NCBI GenBank assembly: GCA_964450605.1
Contig: CAYVEK010000001.1
Span: 143,933 to 207,932 of the forward strand
Reading direction: 5' to 3'
Source of the DNA: an uncultured Candidatus Saccharibacteria bacterium
Lineage (GTDB): Bacteria > Patescibacteriota > Minisyncoccia > Phycocordibacterales > CAIZLB01
Length of the DNA: 64,000 bases
The notes under the pieces are model-generated. The model did not search any database and was not told the origin of the DNA. It worked only from the letters and a program-made list of their open reading frames with translations. Both the position numbers and the translations under genes were made by a program. Shown one piece after another: positions 37,242 to 52,353 of the stretch (positions are counted from its first letter, which is position 1; the number at the start of each line of letters is the position of its first letter).

Positions 37242-37247
37242 AAAAAT

Positions 37248-38036: not shown

Positions 38037-38108
38037 GGCCCTATCGTCTAACGGTTAGGACATCGGCTTCTCAAGCCGGTAATCGGGGTTCGATTCCCCG
38101 TAGGGTCA
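38037..38108 (+). tRNA. tRNA-Glu (anticodon CUC)
   Basis: Manual fold: acceptor ggcccta/tagggtc, anticodon stem tcggc/gccgg with loop ttCTCaa, T-arm cggggTTCGATTccccg. Confidence 0.8.
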
Positions 38109-38136
38109 CCTTCAACAGCTAGCACGAGTAGCATAC

Positions 38137-38165
38137 AAAAATAGCCCCTAGAAGGGCTATTTTTG
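38137..38165 (+). terminator. Rho-independent terminator after tRNA-Glu
   Basis: atagccc-ctagaa-gggctat followed by TTTT. Confidence 0.65.
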
Positions 38166-38172
38166 TCATCTG

Positions 38173-39708
38173 GTGCAAATTAGTCACAATAAGGTATCCT
38201 TATACCATATGTCTATAACCAAGACCGATTTTCTTACATGCTTAGATTGTCCCCAAAATGCATGGTTAAAAATACACCGACCAGATGTGTACAAGAAATA
38301 TCCACTCTCTTCTTTTGAATTAAATATAATAGATACGGGTAATTTGATCGATACTCTGGCTCGAGACTTGTTTCCTGGTGGTATAACAATCCAATCTCGT
38401 GACGACTTCGAACTCACAAAGAAATTAATAGCGGAGAGAACACCTGTGATTTATCAGCCTGTCTTTATTACAAATAAATTTACAGCTGTCTCAGATATTC
38501 TAGTGTGGAATTCTAAAACCAATCTGTATGATCTGTACGAGGTAAAGTCTTCTACTACTTCTGAAGAGAACGGAGGGCGGAAAACAGATGAATACATTGT
38601 GGATATGGCATTTCAAAAAAATGTATTAGATGAGCTTGGTATAAAAATTGGAACATTTAATCTTATTCGAATTAATAAAGAATATGTAAGATTTGGCAAT
38701 ATAGATGTAAGCAGACTTTTCTTAACTGAAAATTTAACAGATCAAGTTGAACAAGCATTGGAGGATGTTAAATTAAAGATGGAGGGTGCTTATGAATTTC
38801 TATCTAAAGAGGTTGAGCCAAAGGGACACTGTGAATGTATTTTTAAGAGTAAAAATTCTCATTGTACTACCTCTAAATACTCAAATCATGATATGCCCGA
38901 ATACTCGGTTCATTCAATATCTCGTATACACAAGAAAAAGCTAATTGATTTAGTTGAACAAGGTATCTTGAACATACATGATGTACCTAAAGATTTTGAG
39001 TTGTCAGAAAATCAAAGACGCCAAGTAGACACTGCTCAATCGGGTAAGGAATTTATTGATCAAAACGGAATATCACAATTTCTTCAAACAATGGAATATC
39101 CGCTAGCTTTTCTTGATTATGAGACTTATCCTTCAGCTATACCGAAATTTGACGGGTATAGTCCATATCAGCAAATTCCATTTCAGTTTTCACTTCATGT
39201 AATTGAATCTATTGGTGGAGATGTTATTCATCATGAATTTTTACACTTAAATGATAAGTGTCCAGATGAATATTTTGCTGATGCACTTGAGAAGTATTTA
39301 CCAAAAAATGGAAGCGTTGTTGTTTGGAATCAGAAATTTGAGAAAGGTATCAATGAACAGATTGGTAAGCATCTGCCAAATCGCGTGGATTTTATGGATT
39401 CAATAAATAGCAGAGTTGTCGACTTAATGATTCCTTTTTTTGGAAAAACAACAATGTACGATCACCCTCAATTTAAAGGTAGTGCCTCAATCAAGTACGT
39501 ATTACCTGCGTTAGTTCCCGAATTATCATATAATGATATGCATATTCAAGAAGGAGGTACAGCGTCAGATACATGGAACAAAATAGTCTCAAGTGAGTAT
39601 TCTGAAAGTGAAAAATTGATTAAAGAACAAGCTCTAAGAGATTACTGCAGACTTGATACTTTGGCGATGGTTGAGATTTGGAAGGTATTAACTAAATCTA
39701 TCCAGTAA
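38173..39708 (+). CDS. Cas4/RecB-like PD-(D/E)XK nuclease (4-Cys cluster) fused to a C-terminal DnaQ-like DEDD 3'-5' exonuclease domain (DUF2779-like architecture)
   Basis: N-terminal CLDC ... D-x-YEVK (PD-D/ExK) ... CECIFKSKNSHC Cys cluster; C-terminal FLDYETY (Exo I), VVWNQKFE (Exo II), YCRLDTLAM (Exo III-like). Confidence 0.5.
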   Translation: MQISHNKVSLYHMSITKTDFLTCLDCPQNAWLKIHRPDVYKKYPLSSFELNIIDTGNLIDTLARDLFPGGITIQSRDDFELTKKLIAERTPVIYQPVFITNKFTAVSDILVWNSKTNLYDLYEVKSSTTSEENGGRKTDEYIVDMAFQKNVLDELGIKIGTFNLIRINKEYVRFGNIDVSRLFLTENLTDQVEQALEDVKLKMEGAYEFLSKEVEPKGHCECIFKSKNSHCTTSKYSNHDMPEYSVHSISRIHKKKLIDLVEQGILNIHDVPKDFELSENQRRQVDTAQSGKEFIDQNGISQFLQTMEYPLAFLDYETYPSAIPKFDGYSPYQQIPFQFSLHVIESIGGDVIHHEFLHLNDKCPDEYFADALEKYLPKNGSVVVWNQKFEKGINEQIGKHLPNRVDFMDSINSRVVDLMIPFFGKTTMYDHPQFKGSASIKYVLPALVPELSYNDMHIQEGGTASDTWNKIVSSEYSESEKLIKEQALRDYCRLDTLAMVEIWKVLTKSIQ

Positions 39709-42700
39709 TACGCTGTACATGCTGTACGATGTCATTAAGCACATCCTGTTTGTGCATATACCAATGCTGTGACCATATTCGATAGATCTTCCAACCTCGT
39801 GTTTCTAAGATATCCTGCCTCATTCTATCTCTAATTCTGGCTGACTTTGAAGAGTGGTATACCGCTCCATCACATTCTATTCCCAAAACATAGTCAGTAT
39901 TATTTTTAGGATTTACAATTGCAAGATCAATTTTGAAGCCTGAAACCCCAACCTGTCTTTTCACGACATAACCAATATCGGTAAGAGCTTTCTCTACACA
40001 CGCTTCAAAATCACTGTCATGTTCAGCATTTGAAGTATCACCTGCAATTAGATTACCCTCCAATACTTGCGAACCTTTTTCTGCATATTCAAGATATTTT
40101 TGGAGCAGTACAGCTCCTCTGGTACTAGTAGACGGACTCATATCACTAAACCTCATTGAAGTTACGCAAATCAACTTATCTTTTGCACGAGTGACTGCTA
40201 CATTCAAACGCCTATAACCAGCGGCTGAGGTGAGCGGTCCAAATCTATTGAAAACCTTTCCAGTCTTATCTGGTCCATAACAAACAGATAAAATAATTAC
40301 ATCTCTTTCGTCTCCTTGAACAGATTCTAGGTTTTTAATAAAAAAACTGTCTTTCTTTTCACTTGTCTCATCAAGATACTCAGTTAAATGAGGATACTCT
40401 TTTGAAAGTTTTTCTTCGAGAGCTGTACGTATCGCTTCTTCCTGGGATTTACTGAATGCAATAACACCCATGGTCTTATTAGGATTATTTTGCACATGTT
40501 CAATACATAATTTCGCTACTTCTTCAGCTTCTATTATGTTTGTCCTTGTTCCTGCGTGACGCTCTTTCTCACCATTTTCTTTATGAGTTATGATGCTTCC
40601 ATCGTAAACACCATTAACAAACTTAAATTCCACCCCTCTACTATTTTGCGGATTTGGAAATGTAATAAGACGATTCTGATAAATGTGGTAGTTAGAAAAA
40701 GCGATAAGATCTTCAGATGAGCTACGATAGTGGTATTTAAGATAAGCTTCAGATCCATTAAGTAAGCTAATAGATTTTTGAAGGATACTCTCAAATCCCG
40801 TCTCTTCGTTTACATCCTCATCTTCATCTTCGTCTCCATCGAGTGATACACCGAAAAATGACGTGGGTGGTAGCTGATGTTCATCACCAATCACCACAGC
40901 CTGTTTTGCTCTGGCTATGGCACCTAGTGCATTTTCAATTTTCATCTGTGAAGCTTCATCGAAAATTACCACATCGAAATTAACCGCTCCGTATTCTAGA
41001 TATGAGCTTAAAGCAAGAGGACTTACCATCCAGCATGGCTTCATAAGTTGAATATGTGAAGCGTACCGCTGAACCAGTGTTCTAATCGGTAAGTGCCTCA
41101 TTTTCTTATTAGCCTCATGTCTAAGCTTCTTGTCTGCCTCACAAGGTATCTGAGACATTTGCAGGAAAGGTAATTGCTGATGGAGAACTCTTAATCGATT
41201 TATCTCCATTGAATCTTTTTCTAGCTCTTTGAATTCCTTAATTATTTTCTCGTATTTGTCCTTCGTAAAATCTCTTAATTCATGATTTGATTCAGAATAA
41301 TTTTCTATCCATTTATTGAAAAACGCCCAAGAATATACGCACGCGAGATCCACACCCTTCGGTATAGAGAGCTTCGCAATTTCTGACATGAACCATTCCA
41401 TACCTATTTCTTCAAGAGCATGCTTCTTCTTTTTATATTCAACCCACCGCTCAAGTCCTGAAGAATCTCCAATCATCTGGTTTATCTCGGTCAACATAAT
41501 CTTATATGATTCCGAAAGTATATTTTCTCTAGTAGCCTCATTCTCAAAAAGACCAGTGAGCTTTTCTACCACAATACTCAAAGCTAGGTATGCCTCGTTG
41601 GAATCATTTATATTCTTTTGAAAGTCGAGTAGTAACGAAGTCAGCTTTGCAGATGATTTGTCAGAAAATTCTGGCACAAGATACGCCAAAAACTCATTAA
41701 CAGATTCTATATAAGAAATAAACGAATTTAATGTTTCGTCTTCCATTAATAAGTCAAAAGCAGACGATTCAACATAGTCATTTATCTTAGATTTCTTTAC
41801 AGCATTAATTATTTGATTTAAGCGATTAAGTACCTCAACTTCATCATTGAGAGAAGCTACATCTTTTGGCGAATACTCTTGAGATGAAATAAATGGCGTA
41901 ACTGCTGTAAAAGATTTTTTTATTTCAGAAACTTCTTCTTCGGTCTGATCAATCAAATTAATCAACTTAGCGAGTGGATACTCCAAAATATTGCATGAGG
42001 TAATATCTCCTAGCAGATCCCAGTTAGAGGTTATTTGTTCTATTTTTTGAGTCTTTTGGATAAGAATTGAATGTATCTTACTGTCAGAGATATATTTCTG
42101 TAGTACAGGTTCAATATACTCGATGTTATTTTTCTCAAAATATTCAATTAGACTCTCCAATCCTTTGTTTATTTTTTCATACGATAAGTGCCTTACGCTC
42201 TGATCTAGAGAGAATGTATCAATTATCTTTTTCCATTCCTCATCATATTTCGTTTGGGTCTTGGATCTAAAAGCAAGGCTAAAGATAATATCCTTTATTT
42301 CTGAATATTTCTCTGGTTTTCTTAAGATACACCATGATCCGACTTCTTTTCGGTCTGCCTTATAGGCACTTGAGAAGTATCTAAAAATATTTTTGTACTT
42401 TTCAAGAAAAATTCCTTCCAGAGCAATGATTTTTGCTGATTCAATTTCACTAAAATTAATACCGTATTTTTCTATAATATCTTGTGACTTTTGTATCTGG
42501 GAATAAAGAACTTCTAAATTCTTAACCGTGTTTCGAAGCTCGTAAATTTGAGATCGAGGTGCTTTTATTATAGGAGAGAGATAGGAATCAATCTGAAAGA
42601 GCAATTGTTTTGATTGAAAATCTTTAACAGAAAAATCCAGTACCTCTGCGGGTATCGTTTTGTCTATCTCCAGTTTAAGAGCAGACAGTGTACTTATGAT

Positions 42701-44662
42701 CGAAGCGCTTCTAGTTGAAAGAATTTCACTAATCTCAGCATCTTGCTTAATGATGTTAATATCTAGTTCCTTTAATTTCTTCCAGTCCTCTGGAAATACA
42801 TATTTGTCACCCTGAGCTAGTTCAGCTTTGTAGGATGACTTCATTTCGACGATCTCTTTGATTGAAGCTTTAACGAAGTTTAAATAATCAGAATCAAGTG
42901 ATTTTACCTTAGGGTAAGAATTATTAATTATATAATGACCATTTCCTCTTGAAAGTGATTCGATGGCTTCCTTTATTGCCTTTAGATTTTTAAAACTCGA
43001 TACATCAACTATTTTATCTAGTGCTAATAAACATTCTTTAGTTTCTTTCAAGGCTTCAATAACTCTTTGAGAAAAATCAACACTATAGTGTTTTCTGGCA
43101 ACACTCCTCCATATACTTTCTTCGGAAAATAGTCCGATCAAGTCATTTGTTTCTCTGATCAAAAACTCAGCTTGTTGATAATCTTCCAGTGTAAACTCTA
43201 GAGGACTTTTACCTTTCCAAGGCAACACAACTTCTTTTGATTTATCATTAACTTTTGCTAGTTCACCAAAAATCCAATAGATATTTTTATTTAATGGAGC
43301 GACTGATGTTGTAATCAAGGTACCATAAGATTTCAAAGAATCAATTTTCTTTTGTCTTAACTTTAATTTAGTTTCCAAATCAGCATCCTTATTCTTCTTC
43401 AACACAGAAACAACACTATCTCTTGAATCTAGGATATCTGAAGAAAAACTTTTCTTGTCATTCGTATAGTTAAAGAGTGGTAGACATAAATCTCCGACAC
43501 TTGCCCCCAAGCGTTTTCCGTCAATATCATAAGACAGTCTCTTGTAGACGACATCGAGTGCAACCTGTTTTTCACAAACAAATAACACCTTCTTCTTTCG
43601 AGCGAGCAGGTTTGATATAACATTCGCAATAGTCTGACTTTTTCCTGTTCCTGGCGGACCATGAATGACCATATGATCACCCGATACAATCTTCCTTATA
43701 GCTTGAATCTGACTTCCGTCAGCGTCTAAAATGGTGAAGTCTTCTTCCTTATTTAAAAAATCATCTGGGTTGAATTCTCCCTCATCAATTGTTACAAGAT
43801 CTGAATTATCTTGATGAAAAGAATCTCCACCACAAACACTATTGATAAAATCATGCTTTAGTATCTCATCTTGGTTCTTGTTGAGATCTTCATAGATTTG
43901 CTGTCCATGAAATGAAAACTGTCCGAGATAAATCTTTTCCGTAAAATCTACAGCGATTCCTTTTTCTTTAAAAATTTCTTTGATTTCTGAGAGAATTTTC
44001 CGCACTTCCGTGAAGGGCATTGCTAGAATTTCTTCTGCTGTTTCAGGTATATTTGGTAGGCGTAACTCAAAATTTTCTTTTATAAAGAGCAGAAGTACAG
44101 GATTTATTTGAGCCGGGTGCTGATTTGTGTCGATAGATAAAATTGTTGCCTTGTAGGGATCTTTCTCATTCTCCAAGGAAACAGGAACAAGCAATAGTGG
44201 AGCAATGTAATCTTGTTGTTTTACAGCATCTGTAGATCCACGCCCTACAGTTTTCTCCTTCCAGCAAACTTCTCCAAAAGCCATAAAAAGTGTGTGCAAT
44301 CCATGTTCGTCAAAGCTTTTCTTAGATTGTAATCTCATTCTCTCAAGAATAGAGATAAGTTTCTTGCCTTGAGGAGATGTTTTTGTGTCATATTCAGGAT
44401 CTCTGGCTTTCTTATCAGATTCTTCCGTTTCTGAAAAAAGATCATCTTGCTCTTCCTCTTTCAAAATTTTCTTGTGGTCAAAAATCGCATTCAACTCATC
44501 AAGACTTCCAAAATATGATGAACATTCTTCTAGGGAAATATTGAACTCAATCTTTGAAGCTTTCAGAGGATATTTCAAAAGACGATTTCTACGAGAAAAA
44601 TCAATAGCGGCTTGTTTATACCGCTTAAAGACTTCTAGAGTTTTTGCAGTTATTTTTGGCAT
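39698..44662 (-). CDS. Giant DUF4011 / SF1 (Upf1-like) helicase / C-terminal DUF559 (Vsr-like PD-(D/E)XK) nuclease protein; candidate defence helicase-nuclease
   Basis: N-terminal IDFSRRNRLLKYP (DUF4011 hallmark); Walker A IHGPPGTGKSQT; DEAS-like VIFDEASQM; SF1 motifs GDEHQLPPT, GDERDVIILS, VAVTRAK; C-terminal GIECDGAVYH...RDRMRQDILETRGWKIYRIW resembling the DUF559/Vsr endonuclease fold. Confidence 0.7.
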   Translation of the reverse strand: MPKITAKTLEVFKRYKQAAIDFSRRNRLLKYPLKASKIEFNISLEECSSYFGSLDELNAIFDHKKILKEEEQDDLFSETEESDKKARDPEYDTKTSPQGKKLISILERMRLQSKKSFDEHGLHTLFMAFGEVCWKEKTVGRGSTDAVKQQDYIAPLLLVPVSLENEKDPYKATILSIDTNQHPAQINPVLLLFIKENFELRLPNIPETAEEILAMPFTEVRKILSEIKEIFKEKGIAVDFTEKIYLGQFSFHGQQIYEDLNKNQDEILKHDFINSVCGGDSFHQDNSDLVTIDEGEFNPDDFLNKEEDFTILDADGSQIQAIRKIVSGDHMVIHGPPGTGKSQTIANVISNLLARKKKVLFVCEKQVALDVVYKRLSYDIDGKRLGASVGDLCLPLFNYTNDKKSFSSDILDSRDSVVSVLKKNKDADLETKLKLRQKKIDSLKSYGTLITTSVAPLNKNIYWIFGELAKVNDKSKEVVLPWKGKSPLEFTLEDYQQAEFLIRETNDLIGLFSEESIWRSVARKHYSVDFSQRVIEALKETKECLLALDKIVDVSSFKNLKAIKEAIESLSRGNGHYIINNSYPKVKSLDSDYLNFVKASIKEIVEMKSSYKAELAQGDKYVFPEDWKKLKELDINIIKQDAEISEILSTRSASIISTLSALKLEIDKTIPAEVLDFSVKDFQSKQLLFQIDSYLSPIIKAPRSQIYELRNTVKNLEVLYSQIQKSQDIIEKYGINFSEIESAKIIALEGIFLEKYKNIFRYFSSAYKADRKEVGSWCILRKPEKYSEIKDIIFSLAFRSKTQTKYDEEWKKIIDTFSLDQSVRHLSYEKINKGLESLIEYFEKNNIEYIEPVLQKYISDSKIHSILIQKTQKIEQITSNWDLLGDITSCNILEYPLAKLINLIDQTEEEVSEIKKSFTAVTPFISSQEYSPKDVASLNDEVEVLNRLNQIINAVKKSKINDYVESSAFDLLMEDETLNSFISYIESVNEFLAYLVPEFSDKSSAKLTSLLLDFQKNINDSNEAYLALSIVVEKLTGLFENEATRENILSESYKIMLTEINQMIGDSSGLERWVEYKKKKHALEEIGMEWFMSEIAKLSIPKGVDLACVYSWAFFNKWIENYSESNHELRDFTKDKYEKIIKEFKELEKDSMEINRLRVLHQQLPFLQMSQIPCEADKKLRHEANKKMRHLPIRTLVQRYASHIQLMKPCWMVSPLALSSYLEYGAVNFDVVIFDEASQMKIENALGAIARAKQAVVIGDEHQLPPTSFFGVSLDGDEDEDEDVNEETGFESILQKSISLLNGSEAYLKYHYRSSSEDLIAFSNYHIYQNRLITFPNPQNSRGVEFKFVNGVYDGSIITHKENGEKERHAGTRTNIIEAEEVAKLCIEHVQNNPNKTMGVIAFSKSQEEAIRTALEEKLSKEYPHLTEYLDETSEKKDSFFIKNLESVQGDERDVIILSVCYGPDKTGKVFNRFGPLTSAAGYRRLNVAVTRAKDKLICVTSMRFSDMSPSTSTRGAVLLQKYLEYAEKGSQVLEGNLIAGDTSNAEHDSDFEACVEKALTDIGYVVKRQVGVSGFKIDLAIVNPKNNTDYVLGIECDGAVYHSSKSARIRDRMRQDILETRGWKIYRIWSQHWYMHKQDVLNDIVQHVQRITG

Positions 44663-44730: not shown

Positions 44731-46047
44731 TTAGATATAGATCTTCTTGTTTTTCAATCGTATGTTTGTATTCAAGCACCTCATAAATTCTCGCTTCTCA
44801 TCCATTGTCCCTTCGATTAGGATGAACTTGGCATAGTTCCGAATATCAATATCTTTCACCACCACAGTTGTCTTGGCACCAAGTAACATCTGCTCAAACT
44901 TCTTGAATCTTTGCACTTCAGCCGTGATCTTTTCTCTCATAGGCACTGTCTGTATCTCTAAATCGTCCATGAGGTCTTGTAGTTGGACAACAAGGTCTTC
45001 TTCATTGATGAATCCACATGGACAGTCTTGATCTCTCGTTCTTGTACATTTGTAGTATACATATCGGTTCATGTTACCGTTCTTCTGGTGCTTGAACTTT
45101 TCATCTGCCGTAATACCTGATCCACATAGTCCGCAAGTCATAATCTTGGTGAAGGCAAACTCCTTTTGTTGTGATCTTGGCTCGAGTATCTGACTTTTAA
45201 TCTTCTCCTGAACAAGATCAAACAATTCTTTCGTAATTATTGCTTTATGTGATCCGTTATACCAATTACCTGATTCTTTTGGAAACTCAAACCTGCCGTA
45301 GTAAAAGTGATTTTGGAATATTCTATAGAGATTTCCTAGACTTAGGTGGATATTATTCTCAGTCTTAAAGTTTATATCGTGCTTGAGCCATTGATATACC
45401 TTTCGTCCACTCCAACCATCGTAACCAATTTTCTCGAACATCTGCTTGATAATCGGTGCTCGTTCAGGATCTATGATGGATTCGCATTTTTGATCTATTC
45501 TTTTGTACTTTGTGTATCCAGTTGGTGGTTTACATGGCCACAAACCCATTTCAACTCTTGCCCGTAACCCTCGCTTCACGTTAATACTCTTATTGTCGTT
45601 CTCAAGTTTTGCTTGAGAACACAAGATCATCAGTAAGAATTTCTCATTAGGCGAATTAGAAAAAGTTTGTCCGTAGGTTTGTATATGAATTAACTTTCTT
45701 TGATCCATAAGATCAACAACGGCTCCGAGGTCTCCAGCGTTTCTTGAAAGTCTATCGGGTGCCCATGTGAGTATTCCGTTATATACACCTTTCGAAACCT
45801 CATTAAGTAGTTCTTTGAACACTGGTCGTTGTCCAGATTCTTTTGCAGAGTGAGATTCTCGTTTTATATCCACCACATTCAGTTTCAACCTTTCCGCAAT
45901 CGCTGTCATTTCTTTGATCTGAGAATCGATGGACAGGGCTTGCTGTTCATCTGATTCGGTTGATTTTCGGGCATATAGGCAATACTTAATCCTAGTTTCT
46001 GTTATTGATATATTGCTATGAATTTTGCCGATTACATTCGATTCCAT
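44731..46047 (-). CDS. Large serine recombinase (integrase)
   Basis: Catalytic YARKSTESDEQ...SIDSQ and DRLSRN motifs; recombinase domain; Zn-ribbon CGLCGS...C; 438 aa. Confidence 0.8.
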   Translation of the reverse strand: MESNVIGKIHSNISITETRIKYCLYARKSTESDEQQALSIDSQIKEMTAIAERLKLNVVDIKRESHSAKESGQRPVFKELLNEVSKGVYNGILTWAPDRLSRNAGDLGAVVDLMDQRKLIHIQTYGQTFSNSPNEKFLLMILCSQAKLENDNKSINVKRGLRARVEMGLWPCKPPTGYTKYKRIDQKCESIIDPERAPIIKQMFEKIGYDGWSGRKVYQWLKHDINFKTENNIHLSLGNLYRIFQNHFYYGRFEFPKESGNWYNGSHKAIITKELFDLVQEKIKSQILEPRSQQKEFAFTKIMTCGLCGSGITADEKFKHQKNGNMNRYVYYKCTRTRDQDCPCGFINEEDLVVQLQDLMDDLEIQTVPMREKITAEVQRFKKFEQMLLGAKTTVVVKDIDIRNYAKFILIEGTMDEKREFMRCLNTNIRLKNKKIYI

Positions 46048-46405
46048 ATATTAATTAATGACAGACCAGTCAGGGGTGCATAGCTATGCAAAATAGCCGA
46101 AACGTAGCATGGTCGTTTTGGCTATTAGCAAGGCTATATTTTGGCGTTATTATTAATCTAGAATAATAGATATGAAAATGCTATTATTCATTTACAACTA
46201 AATAAGGCGACCTAACCCTATGGAATAAACCCTATAGGTATGGTCATAAAGTCGATCAAGTGTAAAGAACCCGTCATGGGGTTTTGCTTGATCGCCGTAC
46301 TGGGAAACTGGTACGAAGGACTTCGGTCCTTACCCGTGGCGGGCTTTTTGTATACAACAAAATTCTCGCTAGGTTACAAATAATTTAAGCCGATCAAGCA
46401 AAATT

Positions 46406-47194
46406 ATGGCACTACTATCATTTATACAAAACATACTCACAAAACGTGAGGGTATTAAGCAATATCAGACTAATATCGTTGAATACCTTAAAGACGGAAA
46501 ACTGAGTCAGACAGAGAAAGATGATCTGAATAAAATAAAGCTCGAGTACGGTATCACAGATAAGGATCTACAAAATATTCATAAAATTCAGGCATCGGCA
46601 GTTTTTAATAATATTTCTTCAGATCAGCGCATAACAGAGGATGAAAAAGAATCTTTAAGTTTAATTCTGGATCACTTTGGTTTGTCTGTGAAAGACTTTG
46701 ATTTCAATCAAAAGAATTTTAATAAGTATTATGCGATGGCACTTATTGATAAAGGAATGCTTCCGACCGTTGATCCAGAGAACTTCAAAGTACCTGTCAT
46801 AATGAAAAGTGGAGAAATAATTCACTTTGGCAGTGAGGCGAACTTAGTTAAGGTAAAGAAAGTAATGGAAAAGATGTTCTATGGAGGTCTTTCTGGATCG
46901 ATAAAGATTATGAAAGGTATGCGGTATAGATGGGGTACTATAAAACCGACAATTGCACACAAAGAAGTTTCAGCTATTGAGGATTCAGGCGTACTTTACA
47001 TTACCAATCAAAGAATTGGTTTTATTGGGTCGCGTAAGCAATTTTCGGTTCTGTATAATAAGATATCAGGCTTTGAATTACGGGCTGATGGATTGTATAT
47101 ATTCAAAGATGGGAAAGAATTACCATATATTGTGACGCTTCAAGATTACGAGGTTCCGCTCTCAATAATTTCGTCGTTATTAAACGATAATTGA
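46406..47194 (+). CDS. Hypothetical protein (TerB-like N-terminus plus bacterial PH-like C-terminus)
   Basis: DGKLSQTEKDDLNKI (TerB-like); C-terminal YITNQRIGFIGSRKQFSVLYNKISGFEL resembling bPH_2; weak. Confidence 0.3.
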   Translation: MALLSFIQNILTKREGIKQYQTNIVEYLKDGKLSQTEKDDLNKIKLEYGITDKDLQNIHKIQASAVFNNISSDQRITEDEKESLSLILDHFGLSVKDFDFNQKNFNKYYAMALIDKGMLPTVDPENFKVPVIMKSGEIIHFGSEANLVKVKKVMEKMFYGGLSGSIKIMKGMRYRWGTIKPTIAHKEVSAIEDSGVLYITNQRIGFIGSRKQFSVLYNKISGFELRADGLYIFKDGKELPYIVTLQDYEVPLSIISSLLNDN

Positions 47195-47196: not shown

Positions 47197-48705
47197 TTAG
47201 AATATTTTATCTCTCAAACCGTAAGTGATAGGTCTGCATTCTTCATTTTGACTCAGCTCATTTCTAGGAAAAGGACTAGGTCTATCGTGGTTTAGTTTGG
47301 AGATGTAATTTATGGCAAGACTAAGTGCGTCTACGAGGTCATCATGAGACTCTGTTCCAAAACCAATGAGTTGAGTGATTAATTCTTCGTTGCCGTATTC
47401 AGAGAATAGTACTTTCCCAGACTGAATATATTGCGAAGCGAGCATGAGTCTTGTGGACTTGTCTAAACCACCTAAAGATACGCTTTCTGCAATAACACCT
47501 TCTGATTGCAACATCTGTGTCAGCCCTGATTGTGTACCTACACCCTCAACCAAAACCGTACATTTGGGATACTTGATCATGTTGATGTAAGTAGTTTTTA
47601 TCTTTTTGACTGTGTCGGGGAATATGAGTTTTTGATTTATTGGATTCGGCATGATACATATTTTTAAATCACTACCAAAACCAAATACCTGTGTCACTAC
47701 AATGCTTGTATAGTCTGATCTCGCATTTTGTGATACCGCCAAATCAACACTGATATATGTGGACTTATATGGATATTTCCTTTTTATATCTTCTAAGTTT
47801 TTATATCTTTTAATCCACTCGGGTTTTATGATCTGATCATCAGGGGGTAAGATGCGTAGTAGGTATTCCCGTTGCCAAGCAATCTCGTCTCCTACATGTT
47901 TTTTGTATACTTCTACATCATCTTTAGTCTTAAATTTCCCAGGCCAAAGGCATACACCGTCTTTTGTAATTAGCGGATATTCCTTAAATACACCCTCCAT
48001 TTCACCATTAGATATTTTTCTTTTTACTCGCATGAGTAGTGAATCGTCATGCAGGAGGTTTCCTAAGCATACGAATCTAGTATTTTCGTCACCAAGAGGT
48101 CTAATCTCACTCATAAACCATTGGTATGTTTTATCTCTACTTTCCTTGGTTTTACATGATTGGATATCTTCGATGTCATCACAAATAATCAGACTCGGTC
48201 GATGTTCAAGGTGTCTTGACCCTCTAATGCTTTGTTCAGAAGATATAGCAGTAATTCGTGCATTAAGCTTTGTAAACGTAAGCGAAAGAGCACCCCACTC
48301 ATCACTTTCTTCCTTAAATGGACCGAGATCGTTTTTTAATAAGCTATTTGTTTCTAGCTCGATTTTAATGTTTGCTAGGTGTTGTCGGGCCTGTATGCGT
48401 GTTTGTGAGACTATGAGAATATACTTTTCTTTTCTATATCCAAGAATTGACCATATTGGATAGGATGTAGTTAGAATTGTAGATTTAGCTGATCCTCTAA
48501 ATGCTATGAGATACATATTCTCAATACTGTCATTCTGTGTTAGTTCGAATATCTCTTTTTGGAAGTCTGCAGTTTCACTTTTGATGTAATGAGGAAAATA
48601 GAAATGGAAAAAAAGAATGTGACTTCGAGATGTAATTCCTATACGCACCTTAGGGTCTTTTGCCATAAGGGCGAAATCGTCATTATTAATCATTGCTTTC
48701 TTCAA
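47197..48705 (-). CDS. Phage terminase large subunit-like protein
   Basis: N-terminal ATPase with FRGSAKST Walker-A-like motif; C-terminal RNaseH-like nuclease with SHDDLVDALS; ~500 aa. Confidence 0.6.
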   Translation of the reverse strand: MKKAMINNDDFALMAKDPKVRIGITSRSHILFFHFYFPHYIKSETADFQKEIFELTQNDSIENMYLIAFRGSAKSTILTTSYPIWSILGYRKEKYILIVSQTRIQARQHLANIKIELETNSLLKNDLGPFKEESDEWGALSLTFTKLNARITAISSEQSIRGSRHLEHRPSLIICDDIEDIQSCKTKESRDKTYQWFMSEIRPLGDENTRFVCLGNLLHDDSLLMRVKRKISNGEMEGVFKEYPLITKDGVCLWPGKFKTKDDVEVYKKHVGDEIAWQREYLLRILPPDDQIIKPEWIKRYKNLEDIKRKYPYKSTYISVDLAVSQNARSDYTSIVVTQVFGFGSDLKICIMPNPINQKLIFPDTVKKIKTTYINMIKYPKCTVLVEGVGTQSGLTQMLQSEGVIAESVSLGGLDKSTRLMLASQYIQSGKVLFSEYGNEELITQLIGFGTESHDDLVDALSLAINYISKLNHDRPSPFPRNELSQNEECRPITYGLRDKIF

Positions 48706-49084
48706 TTTTATCTGTGAATAATTTTGATGAGTTTAAAACTCTTTCGATTGCTTCTGCTTGTTCAGGGGTAAGTTCCTGACCCTGATGTTTGGTAGTCAGC
48801 TCAATCCTGTTTCTATACTTTGGACTTCTGCTAGAAAGCCAAAACCTAAGTGCAGGGAAGCTTTTTTCTTTTATGAGATTTAATAGTTGTGTTTCACTCA
48901 TGTCACTTATGAATTCCTCTCCCTCAATCATTGCCGAATGCATTTGAGCCTCAAATTCTTTATCCTCGTGTTTCCAGCGATAGATTGTGTTTCGAGATAA
49001 ATTTGATTGCTCACAAGCTACTTGAACTATTGGCACTTTCTTGAGACTTTCAAGAAATTTAGTTTTGTTTCTATTTTTCTTCAT
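48686..49084 (-). CDS. Small HTH protein, terminase small subunit-like
   Basis: HTH VACEQSNLSRNTIYRWK; overlaps the terminase large subunit start (operon). Confidence 0.4.
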   Translation of the reverse strand: MKKNRNKTKFLESLKKVPIVQVACEQSNLSRNTIYRWKHEDKEFEAQMHSAMIEGEEFISDMSETQLLNLIKEKSFPALRFWLSSRSPKYRNRIELTTKHQGQELTPEQAEAIERVLNSSKLFTDKIEESND

Positions 49085-50342
49085 GGTGAATAACTTGAGG
49101 ATTAATTCCGGTTAGTCTGATAAAACGTTTGATAATAAGGTCACAAAATACAGGCTCTTTTTCACAACCAAAGACTTTTCGACCTAACTGTTCACCTGCC
49201 AAGAGAGTACTACCAGATCCTAAGAAACTATCTAAAATAATGTCATTAGGCTTAGTACAGCGTTTGATAGCTTTTTCATGTAAACTTACAGGTTTGCTTG
49301 TTGCATGTTCCATGTCCTTGCCACTCAGTCTCTTTGTGAGCCATAGATCTATTTGATCATGTAGGTTGTTTCCTGTGGTCATGTCTCTGTTTACAACCTC
49401 GTTATTGGTATTTATGTTGTGAGTTAAATATGGTTTATTTCTCACTCCGTAGACGCAAGGTTCATAACATTTGTTGAATGCAACTCCTGGGGTAGGGTTC
49501 TGGGAGTTCTTTATCCATAGGCAAACACGCTTGTTCTCTATACCGAGTTTTCTATAGAGTTCCTGAATAACTCCTATATATACTTGATCACACCAGTAAA
49601 ATACATGAATATCTTCATGAGAGACTGCAAGTGCGGCTTCCATACTCTTACACAGAAAATCTTTATACTCATCAAATCCTCGACTATCACACACAGCGCC
49701 TCCATAAGATCTTTTACCTCCAATACCTCCATTGTAATCGATGTTGATGTTGTAGACTGGGTCAGAATAGATCATTGATACTCTTTCATTACCGCAGAGT
49801 TTCTGGACAACCTTAGGGTCAGTTGAATCTCCACAGATAATCCTGTGCTTTCCTAAAATTATAATATCTCCAGTTTTTGTTTTAGGTTCTTTGATTTTTT
49901 CTAGCTCTTTAGTAACATCAAATTCATCGTCTTTAGCCTCTAATTCTTTATCCCAAAATTCTGATAGCTCTATTGATTCAAAACCTGATTCCAGAAGCAT
50001 TCCGACATCAAAGGATTTGAGTTTGTCGGTGTCCCAAGTTCCACCCAATTTATTGCTTGATATTAGGTATTGTTCATATTCTTGATCAGTTAGTCTTCTG
50101 TTCGGTACTCGTACATCTATCATTTCTTCGCCTCGGTTTAATGCGAGCAACACCTTTAGTCTCTGATGTCCTGCAACAATTTTCCCGTCTGTGTCTACAA
50201 CAGGTATTTCAACGAGATTAAACTTTTTAAAACTCTTCGTTAGGTCAGCGAGTTGTTTCTGGTTGATTTTTCTTGGATTTTTGTCGTACGGTAAAAGTTC
50301 TGATACTTTTCTTTTTTCATTGTGCCATTCTAATTTTTCCAT
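49071..50342 (-). CDS. ParB-like nuclease domain fused to DNA methyltransferase (N6-adenine/N4-cytosine, beta-class)
   Basis: ParB N-domain PYDKNPRKI...AGHQRLKVL; catalytic SDPVYN (DPPY); AdoMet motif I ILDSFLGSGST. The ORF could extend to 50426 (alternative start). Confidence 0.7.
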   Translation of the reverse strand: MEKLEWHNEKRKVSELLPYDKNPRKINQKQLADLTKSFKKFNLVEIPVVDTDGKIVAGHQRLKVLLALNRGEEMIDVRVPNRRLTDQEYEQYLISSNKLGGTWDTDKLKSFDVGMLLESGFESIELSEFWDKELEAKDDEFDVTKELEKIKEPKTKTGDIIILGKHRIICGDSTDPKVVQKLCGNERVSMIYSDPVYNINIDYNGGIGGKRSYGGAVCDSRGFDEYKDFLCKSMEAALAVSHEDIHVFYWCDQVYIGVIQELYRKLGIENKRVCLWIKNSQNPTPGVAFNKCYEPCVYGVRNKPYLTHNINTNNEVVNRDMTTGNNLHDQIDLWLTKRLSGKDMEHATSKPVSLHEKAIKRCTKPNDIILDSFLGSGSTLLAGEQLGRKVFGCEKEPVFCDLIIKRFIRLTGINPQVIHHEEK

Positions 50343-50689
50343 ATATTTTTTATGATTATTGTTTATATATAGAGAACACAAAACACCATACGAGATGTAT
50401 GGTGTTTGCTTGTACACGCAATACATCGAGATGATAAATAACCAGTCTTGTTTTATGAGACTAGTAACTTATGACCTAGATTTATTGCAGGTTGTGTTTA
50501 TAAATCAATCTTCACTTTCATTGGATGTTGTCCTTATGAATGTGAAGACATTGATCGAAAATCTGTTCTTTTTGTTTCGGATATTGTCCATTCGACAAAA
50601 AGGGTGGCAAAGATTGATCTGAGGAATTGTGTAGTTGTAGAGTTCTCCTGTTGGTATTGTAGGTTGCCAGCATATTTAAAGTCAAGCAC

Positions 50690-50720: not shown

Positions 50721-50817
50721 AATGTGACACGTCGGTGTCACATTATGTGTGTTTTTATGTCACTTTTGTCACTTTTTAACTCTGGATATAGGGTTATTAG
50801 GCTGTTATACTTACTCT

Positions 50818-51225
50818 ATGAAAACTATTACCATCTGCGGATCAATGAAATTAAAGGAAAAGATGTATGAAATAGAAGGACAGCTCAGAGACCTAGGCTT
50901 TGGAGTTTTACTACCAAATATAACTAAAACTAAAAATTATGAAAATATGACTGAAATAGAACAGTACGCATTTAAAAACAGAATGATTGTTGACCATTTC
51001 AACAAGATCAAAGAAGGTGATGCTGTCTTAATTCTCAATGATCGACTCAAAGACATAGACAATTATATCGGTGCAAATTCATTTCTTGAAATAGGTTTTG
51101 CATTCTCTTTTGGTAAGAAAATATTTATACTTAACAATCTGCCACAACAACCCAATACGGTTGAGATTGGTGGTATGATGCCCATATGTTTAAATGGTGA
51201 TTTAAATAAAATTAACATCAATTAG
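50818..51225 (+). CDS. Nucleoside 2-deoxyribosyltransferase-like (flavodoxin-like fold) protein
   Basis: MKTITICGSM...GDAVLILN...FLEIGFAFSFGKKIFIL pattern typical of the NDT-like / DUF4406 family; moderate. Confidence 0.4.
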   Translation: MKTITICGSMKLKEKMYEIEGQLRDLGFGVLLPNITKTKNYENMTEIEQYAFKNRMIVDHFNKIKEGDAVLILNDRLKDIDNYIGANSFLEIGFAFSFGKKIFILNNLPQQPNTVEIGGMMPICLNGDLNKININ

Positions 51226-51229
51226 TCAT

Positions 51230-51661
51230 ATGGAGATCAAGAAAACCGGAACATCGAGCGATGGCAAACAAATGCATTATTCTGTAGGTATAATAGTGGA
51301 ATGCAATGGAAAACATCTACTCTTAGATAGAATTAACCCTCCTTTTGGCTTTGCATGCCCAGCAGGTCACATTGATGAAGATGAGGATCCGAAAGAAGCA
51401 TGTCTTCGTGAGCTCAGGGAGGAAACTGGTATTGTCCTAAATGATATTGAATTTATTTGCGAAGAAGAAATCCCTTGGAACTATTGTAAATCAGCTGAGG
51501 TACATTATTGGTATTTGTATAAAGCAAAAGTGGAGTCTGAAAATGTTGTTTTGGAAAAAGATGGCGCCAGAAGTATCGGGTGGTATTCTCCTGAAGAAAT
51601 AAAAGCGCTTAATTTAGAAAAAGTGTGGGAATACTGGTTCAAAAAACTTAAATTATTTTAA
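51230..51661 (+). CDS. NUDIX hydrolase
   Basis: Nudix box G-HIDEDEDPKEACLRELREETGI (GX5EX7REUXEEXGU). Confidence 0.8.
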   Translation: MEIKKTGTSSDGKQMHYSVGIIVECNGKHLLLDRINPPFGFACPAGHIDEDEDPKEACLRELREETGIVLNDIEFICEEEIPWNYCKSAEVHYWYLYKAKVESENVVLEKDGARSIGWYSPEEIKALNLEKVWEYWFKKLKLF

Positions 51662-51669
51662 TTAGTGGC

Positions 51670-52137: not shown

Positions 52138-52271
52138 TAAGAGGACTACGCACGAGAAGGGTCGTTGTGCTATCATAAAAACATTAAAAATAACCTTACC
52201 CAGCAACGAACCAAAAGGTTCTATCTGCTGAAGGCTCACACATATCGTGAGCGGAGCGAACAATTAACAGC

Positions 52272-52353
52272 GTGACCCTAAGCGATGTGTCTGCACACAT
52301 CGCGTCAGGGAATCGAAAAGCTTTTCTATGTTTTGAGAATCCCTTGGATTCGA
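52272..52353 (+). repeat. Structured direct repeat, copy 1 (conserved scaffold A-V-B-C)
   Basis: gtgaccctaagcg / 16-nt variable palindromic segment atgtgtctgcacacat / cgcgtcagggaat / cgaaaagcttttctatgttttgagaatcccttggattcga. Blocks A and C are near-identical to 55967-56095. Confidence 0.7.

What the first reader, a model, noticed from the sequence alone, without database searches (positions are those of the whole stretch)
38037..44662. tRNA-Glu-adjacent island: convergent Cas4-like/DEDD nuclease and 1654-aa DUF4011-Upf1-like helicase-Vsr-like nuclease
Immediately 3' of tRNA-Glu, a classic integration hotspot, lie two large genes. One is a 511-aa PD-(D/E)XK nuclease with a Cas4-type Cys cluster fused to a DnaQ-like exonuclease. 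The other is a 1654-aa protein with DUF4011 N-terminus, SF1 Upf1-like helicase core and C-terminal DUF559/Vsr-like endonuclease. Their 3' ends overlap by 11 nt. Upf1-like helicase plus nuclease is the logic of Mokosh-type defence (which uses a PLD nuclease); here the nuclease is a PD-(D/E)XK Vsr-like domain. The fused Cas4-like-DEDD partner is unusual.
Basis: partly seen in the sequence, partly recalled or inferred. Interest (0 to 1): 0.7.

Follow-up and report, generated by a model that had tools for sequence, protein, structure and literature searches.

The report
Hhe-like defence helicase on integrated element
A known type of single-protein anti-phage helicase-nuclease (Hhe/PDC-S37 family) sits beside a serine integrase on a phage-derived mobile element, inserted at the end of a very conserved nuclease gene in a Patescibacteria genome; that nuclease most likely marks the landing site and is not a new partner.

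Summary
tRNA-Glu(CTC) lies at 38037-38110. A Cas4-like + DEDD nuclease gene follows; the true start is probably 38209, giving 499 aa. A convergent 1654-aa DUF4011/SF1/Vsr-like helicase-nuclease overlaps its 3' end by 11 nt.

The helicase is collinear with the known single-gene defence families PDC-S37, ProA and Hhe, not Mokosh. The "unusual" partner has the standard DUF2779 architecture, a widespread family reported as quasi-essential in JCVI-syn3.0.

It is followed by LOOT RNA, TerL, TerS, ParB-methylase and an OLD-family nuclease.

In relatives the same integrase (80-92% identical) abuts the 3' end of DUF2779 but carries different cargo: type-A helicase, an unrelated type-B helicase (26-31% identical), or other genes. 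Identity matrices for DUF2779, integrase and helicase are mutually incongruent.

DUF2779 usually lacks a helicase neighbour (2 of 25 downstream, 1 of 25 upstream). The helicase family almost never has DUF2779 nearby (1 of 111).

Best reading: defence cargo of an integrative element that targets the DUF2779 3' end, not a tRNA island or two-gene system. The right boundary is unresolved. This is a new member of a known kind, of modest interest.

The parts
38037..38110 (+). tRNA-Glu (anticodon CTC). Host gene, conserved upstream neighbour of DUF2779. No sign that it is the attachment site.
   Evidence: ARAGORN and Rfam tRNA at 63 bits. tRNA-Glu also lies upstream of DUF2779 in L005, L006, L016, L028, L206, L207 and L242. 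Its 3' part is not repeated downstream.
38142..38164 (+). Terminator-like hairpin (tagccc-ctagaa-gggcta) followed by a T-run, after the tRNA.
   Evidence: Read directly from the sequence. Not tested further.
38209..39708 (+). DUF2779 protein, 499 aa: N-terminal Cas4/Dna2-like PD-(D/E)XK nuclease with four invariant Cys, plus a C-terminal DEDD(y) 3'-5' exonuclease. Resident, very conserved gene. Its 3' end is the proposed attachment site.
39676..39691 (+). Proposed left junction (attL core ATTTGGAAGGTATTAA) inside the last codons of DUF2779. Everything to its right, including the DUF2779 tail TKSIQ*, would be element DNA.
   Evidence: Sites with an integrase element and sites without one diverge right after GT(A/G)TTAA. 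DNA identity between the window and L003 steps from 88-94% to about 72% at about 39690. A 15/16 repeat lies at 54748-54763.
39698..44662 (-). 1654-aa DUF4011 / SF1B (Upf1-like) helicase with a roughly 800-aa insertion and a C-terminal MTES_1575/Vsr-like nuclease. Type-A cargo; Hhe/PDC-S37/ProA family anti-phage candidate.
   Evidence: Pfam. PADLOC PDC-S37 1e-288 and Hhe 1.7e-153. NCBIfam ProA 887 bits and Hhe 720 bits, both below cut-off. PDB profile hits. Invariant catalytic motifs.
44731..46047 (-). Large serine recombinase (integrase), 438 aa, 68 nt upstream of the helicase on the same strand.
   Evidence: Pfam Resolvase + Recombinase + Zn_ribbon_recom. PHROG 95 integrase, 4.5e-61. It is 92, 90, 83 and 81% identical to the integrases at the same site in L242, L207, L005 and L006. 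The family occurs on 33 IMG/VR contigs.
46048..46125 (.). Non-coding stretch upstream of the integrase start, conserved with L242. Probably the integrase promoter or regulatory region.
   Evidence: Seen by eye when comparing the window with L242. DNA identity to L207 persists to about 46350.
46209..46331 (+). LOOT RNA (Rfam RF03000), divergent from the integrase.
   Evidence: Rfam 77.3 bits against a gathering score of 46.4. Same position and orientation in L005 and L207; also present on viral contigs L209 and L215.
46406..47194 (+). 262-aa protein of unknown function (weak PDC-S48 match).
   Evidence: No Pfam hit. PADLOC PDC-S48 8.9e-10 over residues 14-99.
47197..48705 (-). Terminase large subunit.
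   Evidence: Pfam Terminase_6C. PHROG 38, 3e-77.
48686..49084 (-). Terminase small subunit-like protein, 132 aa.
   Evidence: PHROG 4044, 3e-10.
49071..50426 (-). ParB-N / N6_N4 DNA methyltransferase, phage type.
   Evidence: Pfam N6_N4_Mtase. PHROG 498, 1e-82, plus ParB-like hits. The module MTase->TerS->TerL->integrase is conserved on about 25 of 33 viral contigs.
50749..52702 (.). Small cargo genes: 158 aa unknown (+), NUDIX (51230-51661, +), GNAT acetyltransferase (51670-52137, +), 168 aa unknown (52196-52702, -).
   Evidence: Pfam annotations carried with the same contig. PADLOC PDC-S07 weak match for the NUDIX protein.
52682..54610 (+). OLD-family ATPase nuclease, 642 aa. A second defence-like gene near the proposed far end of the element.
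   Evidence: Pfam AAA_15, AAA_21 and AAA_23. PADLOC Old 4e-32 and AriA 6.5e-29.
54748..54763 (+). Tentative right junction (attR core ATTTGGAAAGTATTAA), inside a 98-aa hydrophobic ORF (54634-54930).
   Evidence: 15/16 match to 39676-39691 in direct orientation, but BLAST E = 0.59, so not significant alone. It ends exactly at the junction point inferred independently. Homologues of window genes from 57.8 kb rightwards (S51 peptidase, TspO, RNase_T) lie beside DUF2779 in L021, L023 and L030, which bounds the insertion to the left of about 57.8 kb.

Best explanation
The 1654-aa protein is a stand-alone anti-phage helicase-nuclease of the DUF4011 / SF1B helicase / Vsr-like nuclease family (Hhe, PDC-S37, ProA).

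It is carried as cargo in the slot between the attachment site and the large serine integrase of a phage-derived integrative element. The rest of that element is LOOT RNA, TerL, TerS, ParB-methylase, small genes and an OLD-family nuclease. It spans about 15 kb, from about 39.69 kb to about 54.76 kb, and at most to 57.8 kb.

The element is inserted in the last codons of a resident, very conserved DUF2779 gene and supplies a new short C-terminal tail and stop codon. This explains the convergent 11-nt overlap. The tRNA-Glu is the ordinary upstream neighbour of DUF2779.

Inferred mechanism (not shown here, based on the family):
- The Upf1-like motor loads on invading or replicating phage nucleic acid.
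- The C-terminal PD-(D/E)XK-type nuclease cuts it.
- DUF4011 and the roughly 800-aa insertion serve sensing or regulation.
- DUF2779 acts independently as a housekeeping dual nuclease.
For: Family membership:
- The protein is collinear with PDC-S37 (959 bits), ProA (residues 12-1652 in one stretch) and Hhe (residues 79-1651).
- Hhe is documented as a single-gene helicase + nuclease defence system.
- Catalytic motifs are invariant.

Mobile element:
- A serine integrase lies 68 nt upstream on the same strand, followed by TerL, TerS and ParB-MTase.
- The module MTase->TerS->TerL->integrase is conserved on about 25 of 33 viral contigs.

Same site, different cargo:
- L242 and L207 have integrases 92% and 90% identical to the window's, abutting the DUF2779 3' end. 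Their helicase-nuclease is type B, only 26-28% identical.
- L005 adds bPH and SNase genes in the slot.
- L028 has 8.8 kb of other genes between DUF2779 and its integrase.
- L215 has almost no cargo.

Three incongruent histories:
- DUF2779 groups {L006, L207, L242, L206} at 83-87%, with the window at 75-77%.
- The integrase groups {window, L207, L242} at 89-92%.
- The helicases fall into types A and B.

Junction:
- Sites with and without the element diverge just after GT(A/G)TTAA.
- DNA identity to L003 steps down at about 39690.

Independence of the two genes:
- Only 2 of 25 CPR-type DUF2779 loci with at least 3 kb downstream have an abutting helicase, and 1 of 25 upstream.
- Only 1 of 111 helicase-family loci has a DUF2779 gene within 8 kb.
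- Helicases 56%, 49% and 43% identical lie in other islands without DUF2779.
- L003/L004 keep a 92%-identical intact helicase while DUF2779 and the integrase are reduced to fragments.

Host status of DUF2779:
- The order YbeY-FtsA-FtsZ-Pyr_redox...tRNA-Glu-DUF2779 recurs in L006 and L206, with Pyr_redox, tRNA-Val and tRNA-Glu also upstream in L242.
- Only 1 hit in 2.9 million viral contigs.
- The family is reported as quasi-essential in JCVI-syn3.0.
Against: - The right end is not established. The 16-mer repeat is not significant alone (E = 0.59) and lies inside an ORF. No attP-like copy was found on viral contigs.
- No truly empty site was found in a close relative of the window. In its nearest DUF2779 clade, every locus with enough flank carries a helicase (L008, L009, L207, L242). 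The difference in C-terminal tails between sites with and without the element could therefore partly reflect phylogeny.
- Helicase-nucleases of at least three subtypes abut DUF2779 far more often than chance. Some are co-directional and tightly spaced: L011 with a 6-nt gap, and L204/L205 with a 32-nt gap followed by a 352-aa gene and RmuC.
- DUF2779 is much more conserved (83-87%) than FtsZ (58-66%) or FtsA (39-47%) between the same genomes. This could point to horizontal mobility of DUF2779 itself.
- The element lacks capsid and tail genes, so it is degenerate or satellite-like.
- No anti-phage activity has been shown for this protein. It scores below both NCBIfam equivalog cut-offs.
Confidence: 0.68

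Rival explanations
1. The helicase-nuclease and the DUF2779 dual nuclease form a functional two-gene module for defence or DNA-end processing. The helicase-nuclease would unwind and nick, and the Cas4-like/DEDD nuclease would resect the ends.
For: - Adjacency is strongly enriched in Patescibacteria. Helicase-nucleases of at least three subtypes directly abut DUF2779 in the window, L005, L006, L207, L242, L016, L009, L011, L049 and L204.
- In L204/L205 (seen on 15 contigs) and L011 the pair is co-directional with gaps of 32 and 6 nt, which looks like an operon.
Against: - DUF2779 does not co-diverge with the helicase: it stays 71-76% identical where the helicases are only 25-29% identical.
- Each gene mostly occurs without the other: 22 of 25 CPR-type loci have no abutting helicase, and 110 of 111 helicase-family loci have no DUF2779.
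- Every convergent case with enough flank also has the serine integrase (5 of 5).
- L003/L004 keep the helicase while DUF2779 is only a fragment.
- Hhe works as a single gene.
- In L204 the DUF2779 is a divergent copy (38% identical) with RmuC downstream. RmuC also lies about 2 kb from DUF2779 on the L207 chromosome, so the L204 copy may be a host gene at the edge of another element.
Confidence: 0.14
2. The island is integrated at the tRNA-Glu, and DUF2779 plus the helicase are both cargo lying between the tRNA attachment site and the integrase.
For: - tRNA-Glu lies upstream of DUF2779 in every locus carrying this integrase element that I examined for tRNAs.
- The Logan contig of the same sample starts inside the tRNA.
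- DUF2779 is far more conserved than host housekeeping genes, consistent with horizontal spread.
- Integrase, TerL and MTase modules lie near DUF2779 on either side in several loci: L021, L029, L059, L087 and L238.
Against: - The tRNA 3' end is not repeated downstream.
- The DUF2779 and integrase identity matrices are incongruent.
- In L207 a 205-aa gene lies between the tRNA and DUF2779, and in L005 a 215-aa gene does.
- Twenty or more long contigs have DUF2779 without any element gene within 10 kb.
- DUF2779 is nearly absent from viral contigs.
- The step in DNA identity falls at the DUF2779 3' end, not at the tRNA.
Confidence: 0.1
3. The helicase is a housekeeping (core) repair or RNA-quality-control helicase of this lineage rather than a defence gene.
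For: - It belongs to the Upf1/IGHMBP2/Sen1/Dna2 helicase class.
- In Pseudomonas aeruginosa a DUF4011 gene is a conserved core flank of a defence hotspot.
Against: - Its distribution is patchy, with a steep fall in identity.
- It always sits in mobile-element or defence-island contexts.
- It is interchangeable with an unrelated type-B helicase at the same site.
- Its best HMM matches are defence models.
- 31 relatives lie on viral contigs.
Confidence: 0.03

Closest known systems
Hhe (HheA; Gao et al. 2020 by my recollection; DefenseFinder and PADLOC 'Hhe'; NCBIfam NF042953)
   Same: Single large protein with N-terminal DUF4011, a split SF1 helicase (AAA_11...AAA_12) and a C-terminal Vsr-like/DUF559 nuclease. 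It is collinear over residues 79-1651. It is described as a single-gene helicase + nuclease defence system.
   Different: It scores 720 bits against a 2000-bit equivalog cut-off, so it is a distant relative and not an orthologue. The host is Patescibacteria. No activity data exist.
PDC-S37 (PADLOC-DB v2 single-gene 'phage defence candidate')
   Same: Best-scoring model: E = 1e-288, 959 bits. The type-B and L011 helicases also hit it best.
   Different: The match comes in three stretches, the best covering model positions 683-1340 of 1550. By my own knowledge, PDC systems are candidates predicted from genomic context and are not validated.
ProA (NCBIfam NF058533, 'anti-phage protein ProA')
   Same: A single collinear match, residues 12-1652 to model positions 360-1706, at 887 bits.
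   Different: Below the 1500-bit cut-off. The model has about 360 extra N-terminal positions. I could not find the source publication.
Mokosh (MkoA/MkoC helicase + PLD nuclease)
   Same: Upf1-like SF1 helicase core. MkoA and MkoC models match at 1e-32 to 3e-35.
   Different: The match covers only residues 1226-1529. There is no PLD nuclease and no second gene. The architecture is the Hhe type.
DUF2779 / PF11074 family (e.g. MMSYN1_0389 of JCVI-syn3.0)
   Same: Cas4-like N-terminal nuclease fused to a DEDD(h/y) exonuclease. The catalytic D...E-x-K and DEDD residues are conserved.
   Different: The window protein keeps all four Cys of the Cas4-type cluster, whereas the Mycoplasma protein keeps two. 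The Patescibacteria clade is exceptionally conserved, 63-78% identical to the window protein in the 120 best hits.
Prophages and satellites with a variable defence-cargo slot next to the integrase (P2/P4-type hotspots), and large-serine-integrase phages that insert into genes (my own knowledge, not tested here)
   Same: Cargo lies between the attachment site and the integrase. The backbone is conserved while the cargo is swapped. Insertion is into the 3' end of a conserved gene, which receives a replacement tail.
   Different: The host is Patescibacteria, the target is DUF2779, the element is degenerate (no capsid or tail genes), and the att sites are not proven.

Membership tests
Hhe (single-gene DUF4011 helicase-nuclease defence) | N-terminal DUF4011 domain | tested here: met
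   Pfam PF13195, 5.3e-15, residues 20-191.
Hhe (single-gene DUF4011 helicase-nuclease defence) | SF1 helicase core with intact ATPase motifs | tested here: met
   AAA_11 and AAA_12. Walker A (335-344), DEASQ (1235-1239) and later motifs are invariant in 25 homologues. PDB profile hits to Upf1-like helicases.
Hhe (single-gene DUF4011 helicase-nuclease defence) | C-terminal Vsr-like/DUF559 nuclease | tested here: met
   MTES_1575 at 1.1e-32 and DUF559 at 2.8e-5. D1579, E1596, D1598 and H1603 are invariant.
Hhe (single-gene DUF4011 helicase-nuclease defence) | Score above the NCBIfam equivalog cut-off (2000 bits) | tested here: not met
   719.6 bits.
Hhe (single-gene DUF4011 helicase-nuclease defence) | Confers phage resistance as a single gene | not testable with these tools
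   Needs a phage-challenge assay. The literature describes Hhe as a single gene.
PDC-S37 (PADLOC candidate) | Significant match to the PDC-S37 HMM | tested here: met
   E = 1e-288, 959.5 bits, three stretches. PADLOC's own coverage thresholds were not applied.
ProA (NCBIfam NF058533) | Score above the equivalog cut-off (1500 bits) | tested here: not met
   887.5 bits, collinear over residues 12-1652.
Mokosh | MkoA/MkoC-type helicase together with a PLD-family nuclease (separate gene or fused) | tested here: not met
   Only the second helicase domain region matches MkoA/MkoC (residues 1226-1529). No PLD domain appears in this protein or its neighbours.
DUF2779 (PF11074) Cas4-like + DEDD nuclease | PF11074 match above the gathering score | tested here: met
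   125.4 bits against 23.3.
DUF2779 (PF11074) Cas4-like + DEDD nuclease | N-terminal Cas4-type PD-(D/E)XK fold with catalytic D...E-x-K and a Cys cluster | tested here: met
DUF2779 (PF11074) Cas4-like + DEDD nuclease | C-terminal DEDD 3'-5' exonuclease fold with acidic residues | tested here: met
Integrative element / prophage with a large serine integrase | Large serine recombinase (Resolvase + Recombinase + Zn ribbon) | tested here: met
Integrative element / prophage with a large serine integrase | Defined attL and attR flanking the element | tested here: inconclusive
   The left junction is supported by comparing several loci and by the step in DNA identity. The right junction rests only on a 15/16 16-mer with E = 0.59. 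No attP was found.
Integrative element / prophage with a large serine integrase | Same integrase at the same target in other genomes, with differing content | tested here: met
   L005, L006, L207 and L242 have integrases 80-92% identical abutting the DUF2779 3' end. L028 has a 76%-identical integrase 8.8 kb downstream of DUF2779. Cargo differs among them.
Integrative element / prophage with a large serine integrase | Complete phage structural module | tested here: not met
   Only TerL and TerS were found between 39.7 and 54.8 kb. No capsid, portal or tail hits.
tRNA-integrated genomic island | Direct repeat of the tRNA 3' end at the distal border | tested here: not met
   Only chance 10-11-mers, E >= 1.1.

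The most novel reading that the evidence does not exclude
The recurrent, tight abutment of at least three divergent helicase-nuclease subtypes with DUF2779 in Patescibacteria might not be only an insertion-site effect. The arrangement is convergent with overlapping stop codons in the window's lineage, and co-directional with 6-32-nt gaps in L011 and L204/L205, where a 352-aa gene and RmuC follow. The Cas4-like/DEDD nuclease would then cooperate with, license or buffer these helicase-nucleases. Together they would form a new two-component DNA-end-processing defence module, and the mobile elements would exploit the host copy.
Probability: 0.12. Interest if true: 0.6.

Novelty: new member of a known kind. 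Interest (0 to 1): 0.3.

Why it matters
It files a 1654-aa "hypothetical" Patescibacteria protein under a recognised single-gene anti-phage family, which extends that family into the reduced-genome CPR bacteria.

It also shows that the eye-catching gene pair is most simply explained by where a mobile element lands.

Two by-products may help CPR and phage specialists:
- A family of serine-integrase, phage-derived elements that appear to target the 3' end of an exceptionally conserved DUF2779 nuclease gene. They carry interchangeable helicase-nuclease defence genes in the slot between the attachment site and the integrase.
- A consistent position of the orphan LOOT RNA motif next to that integrase.

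None of this changes current concepts of defence islands. The organisation matches the prophage and satellite defence hotspots known from Proteobacteria.

Tried and rejected
- Mokosh-like reading: rejected. Hhe, PDC-S37 and ProA models match the whole length, Mokosh models match only part of the helicase core, and there is no PLD nuclease.
- tRNA-integrated island: no repeat of the tRNA 3' end downstream.
- attR by repeat search: only a 15/16 16-mer at 54748-54763, E = 0.59, inside a 98-aa ORF. I kept it as tentative.
- attP search: I scanned 33 viral contigs carrying the integrase family for a copy of the DUF2779 3'-end core, allowing up to 6 mismatches in 25 nt. No hits, against 0.55 expected in shuffles.
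- att repeat in the minimal insert L242: no 12-mer with at most 1 mismatch shared between its two ends.
- PDB sequence-profile search with the DUF2779 alignment: no hit at E <= 1. Fold comparison was needed instead.
- Empty site in a close relative: not found. All three DUF2779 relatives I looked up by contig (P0004, P0012, P0005) were either occupied or on a contig ending right after DUF2779.
- One literature search was swamped by the unrelated HHEX gene. The origin of the name ProA was not found.
- GC-rich patch at 37.2-37.95 kb: no Rfam family at E <= 0.1.
- Base composition gave no island signal.

Full report
**1. The observation**

The window holds tRNA-Glu(CTC) at 38037-38110. A + strand ORF runs 38173-39708 and a - strand ORF of 1654 aa runs 39698-44662. 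Their 3' ends overlap by 11 nt.

Alignment with 31 homologues places the start of the first gene at the ATG at 38209, giving 499 aa rather than 511. A terminator-like hairpin at 38142-38164 follows the tRNA. Base composition does not set the region apart. The organism is a Patescibacteria (Paceibacterota-type) genome from a metagenome, on a 295-kb NCBI contig and a 55.7-kb Logan contig.

**2. The two proteins**

The 1654-aa protein has this layout:
- DUF4011, residues 20-191.
- A split SF1 helicase: AAA_11 from residue 315 and AAA_12 at 1292-1502, with a roughly 800-aa insertion between them.
- A C-terminal MTES_1575/DUF559 (Vsr-like) nuclease, residues 1552-1648.

A profile of 25 homologues finds the Upf1-like SF1B helicases IGHMBP2, Sen1, Dna2 and Upf1 among solved structures. 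Walker A, DEASQ and the nuclease acidic residues are invariant.

The defence libraries match it strongly:
- PADLOC: PDC-S37 at 1e-288 and Hhe at 1.7e-153. MkoA and MkoC reach only about 1e-33, and only over residues 1226-1529.
- NCBIfam: 'anti-phage protein ProA' at 887 bits (cut-off 1500) and 'Hhe_antiphage' at 720 bits (cut-off 2000). Both are single collinear matches over nearly the whole protein.

Hhe is described as a single gene with helicase and nuclease domains. The protein is a distant member, not an orthologue of either curated model.

Pfam detects only DUF2779 in the 499-aa protein. An AlphaFold model (pLDDT 88.7, pTM 0.82) matches two folds:

Invariant residues fit both halves: C14 plus C208/C210/C219; D96, D108, E111 and K113; D303/E305, E378 and Y479-x3-D483.

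This fusion is already published as the family architecture. Majorek et al. 2014 placed DUF2779 among the 3'-5' exonucleases, together with a Cas4-like DUF83 domain. A 2026 analysis of JCVI-syn3.0 describes the quasi-essential MMSYN1_0389 the same way.

**3.

A 438-aa large serine recombinase lies 68 nt upstream of the helicase on the same strand, at 44731-46047. It has Resolvase, Recombinase and Zn-ribbon domains and matches PHROG integrase 95.

Beyond it lie:
- a LOOT RNA at 46209-46331;
- a 262-aa unknown protein;
- TerL, TerS and a ParB-type N6/N4 methyltransferase;
- NUDIX, GNAT and two small unknown proteins;
- an OLD-family ATPase nuclease at 52682-54610.

On the left of the tRNA are housekeeping genes: TopA, DprA and SerRS. 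The integrase family occurs on 33 IMG/VR contigs. About 25 of them keep the order MTase->TerS->TerL->integrase.

**4. Do the two genes belong together?**

*From the DUF2779 side.* The homology search found 6641 homologues with E <= 0.001 among the 8000 candidates scored. The best 120 are all about 498 aa long and 63-78% identical.
- Among species-representative genomes, only 2 of 25 CPR-type loci with at least 3 kb downstream have an abutting helicase-nuclease.
- Only 1 of 25 has one upstream.
- Only 1 of 47 loci of the more distant type has one directly adjacent.
- DUF2779 occurs on only one IMG/VR contig.

*From the helicase side.* Only 1 of 111 family loci (80 metagenomic, 31 viral) has a DUF2779 gene within 8 kb.

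*Walking down the helicase's own relatives:*

| Identity to window helicase | Locus | Context |
|---|---|---|
| 92% | L003/L004 | Intact helicase flanked by fragments only: 73 codons of the integrase, 51 codons of DUF2779 |
| 69% | L005 | Integrase - helicase - convergent DUF2779 |
| 68% | L006 | Integrase - helicase - convergent DUF2779 |
| 56% | L200 | Tyrosine-integrase/McrBC island, no DUF2779 |
| 49% | L201 | Element with serine recombinase, DGR and ParB-MTase; RmuC downstream; no DUF2779 |
| 43% | L202 | No DUF2779 |
| 41% | L204/L205 | Followed co-directionally by a divergent DUF2779 (38% identical), inside another mobile element |

**5. Same integrase and site, different cargo**

L207 is a 228-kb chromosomal contig and L242 is another genome. 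Both show tRNA-Glu, then DUF2779, then a convergent 1633-aa helicase-MTES_1575 nuclease, then a serine integrase.

Their integrases are 90% and 92% identical to the window's. Their helicases are a different type B: 26-28% identical, alignable only in the C-terminal part, with no DUF4011.

Other loci vary the slot further:
- L005 has extra bPH and SNase genes.
- L028 has 8.8 kb of other genes, including a radical-SAM protein, an IS transposase and a histidine-kinase-like ATPase.
- L215 has almost nothing.
- L242's insert is only helicase + integrase, about 6.3 kb, followed by host-like genes.

The pairwise identity matrices disagree with one another:
- DUF2779 groups {L006, L207, L242, L206} at 83-87%, with the window at 75-77%.
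- The integrase groups {window, L207, L242} at 89-92%, with L006 at 80%.
- The helicases split into type A {window, L003, L005, L006} and type B {L207, L242, L016}.

These look like three separate histories: a host gene, an element backbone and swappable cargo.

**6. The junction**

At sites without an element, DUF2779 usually ends '...EIW[KR]VLKSV*'. At sites with the integrase element it ends 'KVL' followed by a different tail: TKSIQ, NKSI, NRAI, NSSIS or NSSTS. The DNA diverges right after GT(A/G)TTAA.

DNA identity between the window and L003 is 88-94% through the helicase. It steps down to about 72% at about 39690 and to noise left of 39555.

A 15/16 direct repeat of the core, ATTTGGAARGTATTAA, lies at 54748-54763 and ends at that same point. 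It is not significant alone (E = 0.59) and sits inside a 98-aa ORF.

Synteny gives an upper bound. Homologues of the window genes from 57.8 kb rightwards (S51 peptidase, TspO, RNase_T exonuclease) lie beside DUF2779 in other genomes. The left border is therefore reasonably supported and the right border is only tentative. The tRNA 3' end is not repeated anywhere downstream.

**7. Caveats that keep the rivals alive**

- Helicase-nucleases of at least three subtypes abut DUF2779 far more often than chance. Two of these arrangements are co-directional and tight (L011, L204/L205).
- In the window's nearest DUF2779 clade, every locus with enough flank is occupied, so I have no true empty-site control there.
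- DUF2779 is far more conserved (83-87%) than FtsZ (58-66%), FtsA (39-47%) or Pyr_redox (48-58%) between the same genomes. That could mean extreme constraint, which would also make it a good attachment target, as tRNA genes are. It could also mean the gene itself moves.
- I could not find attP.
- I rate a functional two-gene module at about 0.14 and a tRNA-anchored island that includes DUF2779 at about 0.10.

**8. Mechanism**

Shown here:
- family membership by profile and architecture;
- intact motifs;
- residence next to an integrase on a phage-derived element;
- interchangeable cargo at one site.

Inferred from the family:
- The Upf1-like motor translocates on phage nucleic acid and the Vsr-like nuclease cuts it.
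- DUF4011 and the large insertion act in sensing or regulation.
- The helicase may be co-transcribed with the integrase. The gap is 68 nt, and L003 retains the integrase 3' end upstream of its helicase.
- The published trigger and counter-defence data for Hhe do not settle the mechanism.

**9. Verdict**

The helicase is a new, distant member of a known single-gene defence family. The Cas4-like/DEDD protein is a canonical DUF2779 gene that most likely marks the insertion site. The overall organisation, defence cargo between the attachment site and the integrase of a degenerate prophage, is a known pattern seen here in Patescibacteria. Interest is modest.

Noticed in passing
window 46209-46331 (+); L005 3797-3914; L207 17950-18064; L209 16354-16475; L215 4850-4979: The orphan Rfam motif LOOT (RF03000) lies about 150-170 nt upstream of, and divergent from, the large serine integrase in the window, L005 and L207. 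It is also present on two viral contigs of the same integrase family. It is absent from L006, L028 and the minimal insert L242. It looks like an element-borne RNA linked to the integrase region.
   Followed up: partly
DUF2779 genes: window 38209-39708, L006, L206, L207, L242: DUF2779 is much more conserved between Patescibacteria genomes (83-87%) than FtsZ (58-66%), FtsA (39-47%), YbeY (about 41%) or Pyr_redox (48-58%) from the same contigs. There is a gap between CPR-type copies (63-78% identical to the window) and all others (at most 40%). This means either extreme constraint or horizontal spread, and I could not decide which.
   Followed up: partly
L003 9722-15113 and L004 (GCA_040879725.1): A helicase 92% identical to the window's is intact, but it is flanked only by the last 73 codons of the integrase and the last 51 codons of DUF2779. 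The block is inverted relative to the FtsZ cluster when compared with L006. It looks like a rearranged element remnant that kept only the defence gene.
   Followed up: partly
L204 7812-17032 and L205 (seen on 15 contigs): A tight co-directional array: excisionase-like HTH_17, a helicase-nuclease 41% identical to the window's, a divergent 535-aa DUF2779, a 352-aa unknown protein and RmuC. It lies next to replication genes (HTH_36, a DnaA-like protein, PIF1). RmuC also follows the 49%-identical helicase in L201. This may be a multi-gene module.
   Followed up: no
window 52682-54610 (+), with 52196-52702 (-): An OLD-family ATPase nuclease (PADLOC Old 4e-32, AriA 6.5e-29) lies near the proposed far end of the element, so the element may carry defence genes at both ends. 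A NUDIX protein (weak PDC-S07 match) and a GNAT acetyltransferase lie just before it.
   Followed up: partly
window 56232-57779 (+): A Pol-beta-type nucleotidyltransferase (266 aa) is followed 4 nt later by a 247-aa protein with no Pfam hit. This may be a toxin-antitoxin or defence-like pair just outside the proposed element.
   Followed up: no
window 37186-37919: A GC-rich patch (47% against about 36%) lies directly upstream of tRNA-Glu, with overlapping ORFs on both strands, the longest 207 aa on the - strand. There is no Pfam hit and no Rfam hit at E <= 0.1.
   Followed up: partly
L005 679-2082 and L201 2027-3477: Diversity-generating retroelement parts (bAvd plus a reverse transcriptase) lie beside the serine recombinase in two related elements.
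   Followed up: no
L059 and L087 (one Peribacteria MAG), L238, L235: In more distant lineages the integrase-TerL-TerS-MTase module lies on the other side of DUF2779, with the MTase end facing it. One MAG has two such DUF2779-plus-element loci. This phage family is associated with DUF2779 beyond the single insertion geometry seen in the window.
   Followed up: no
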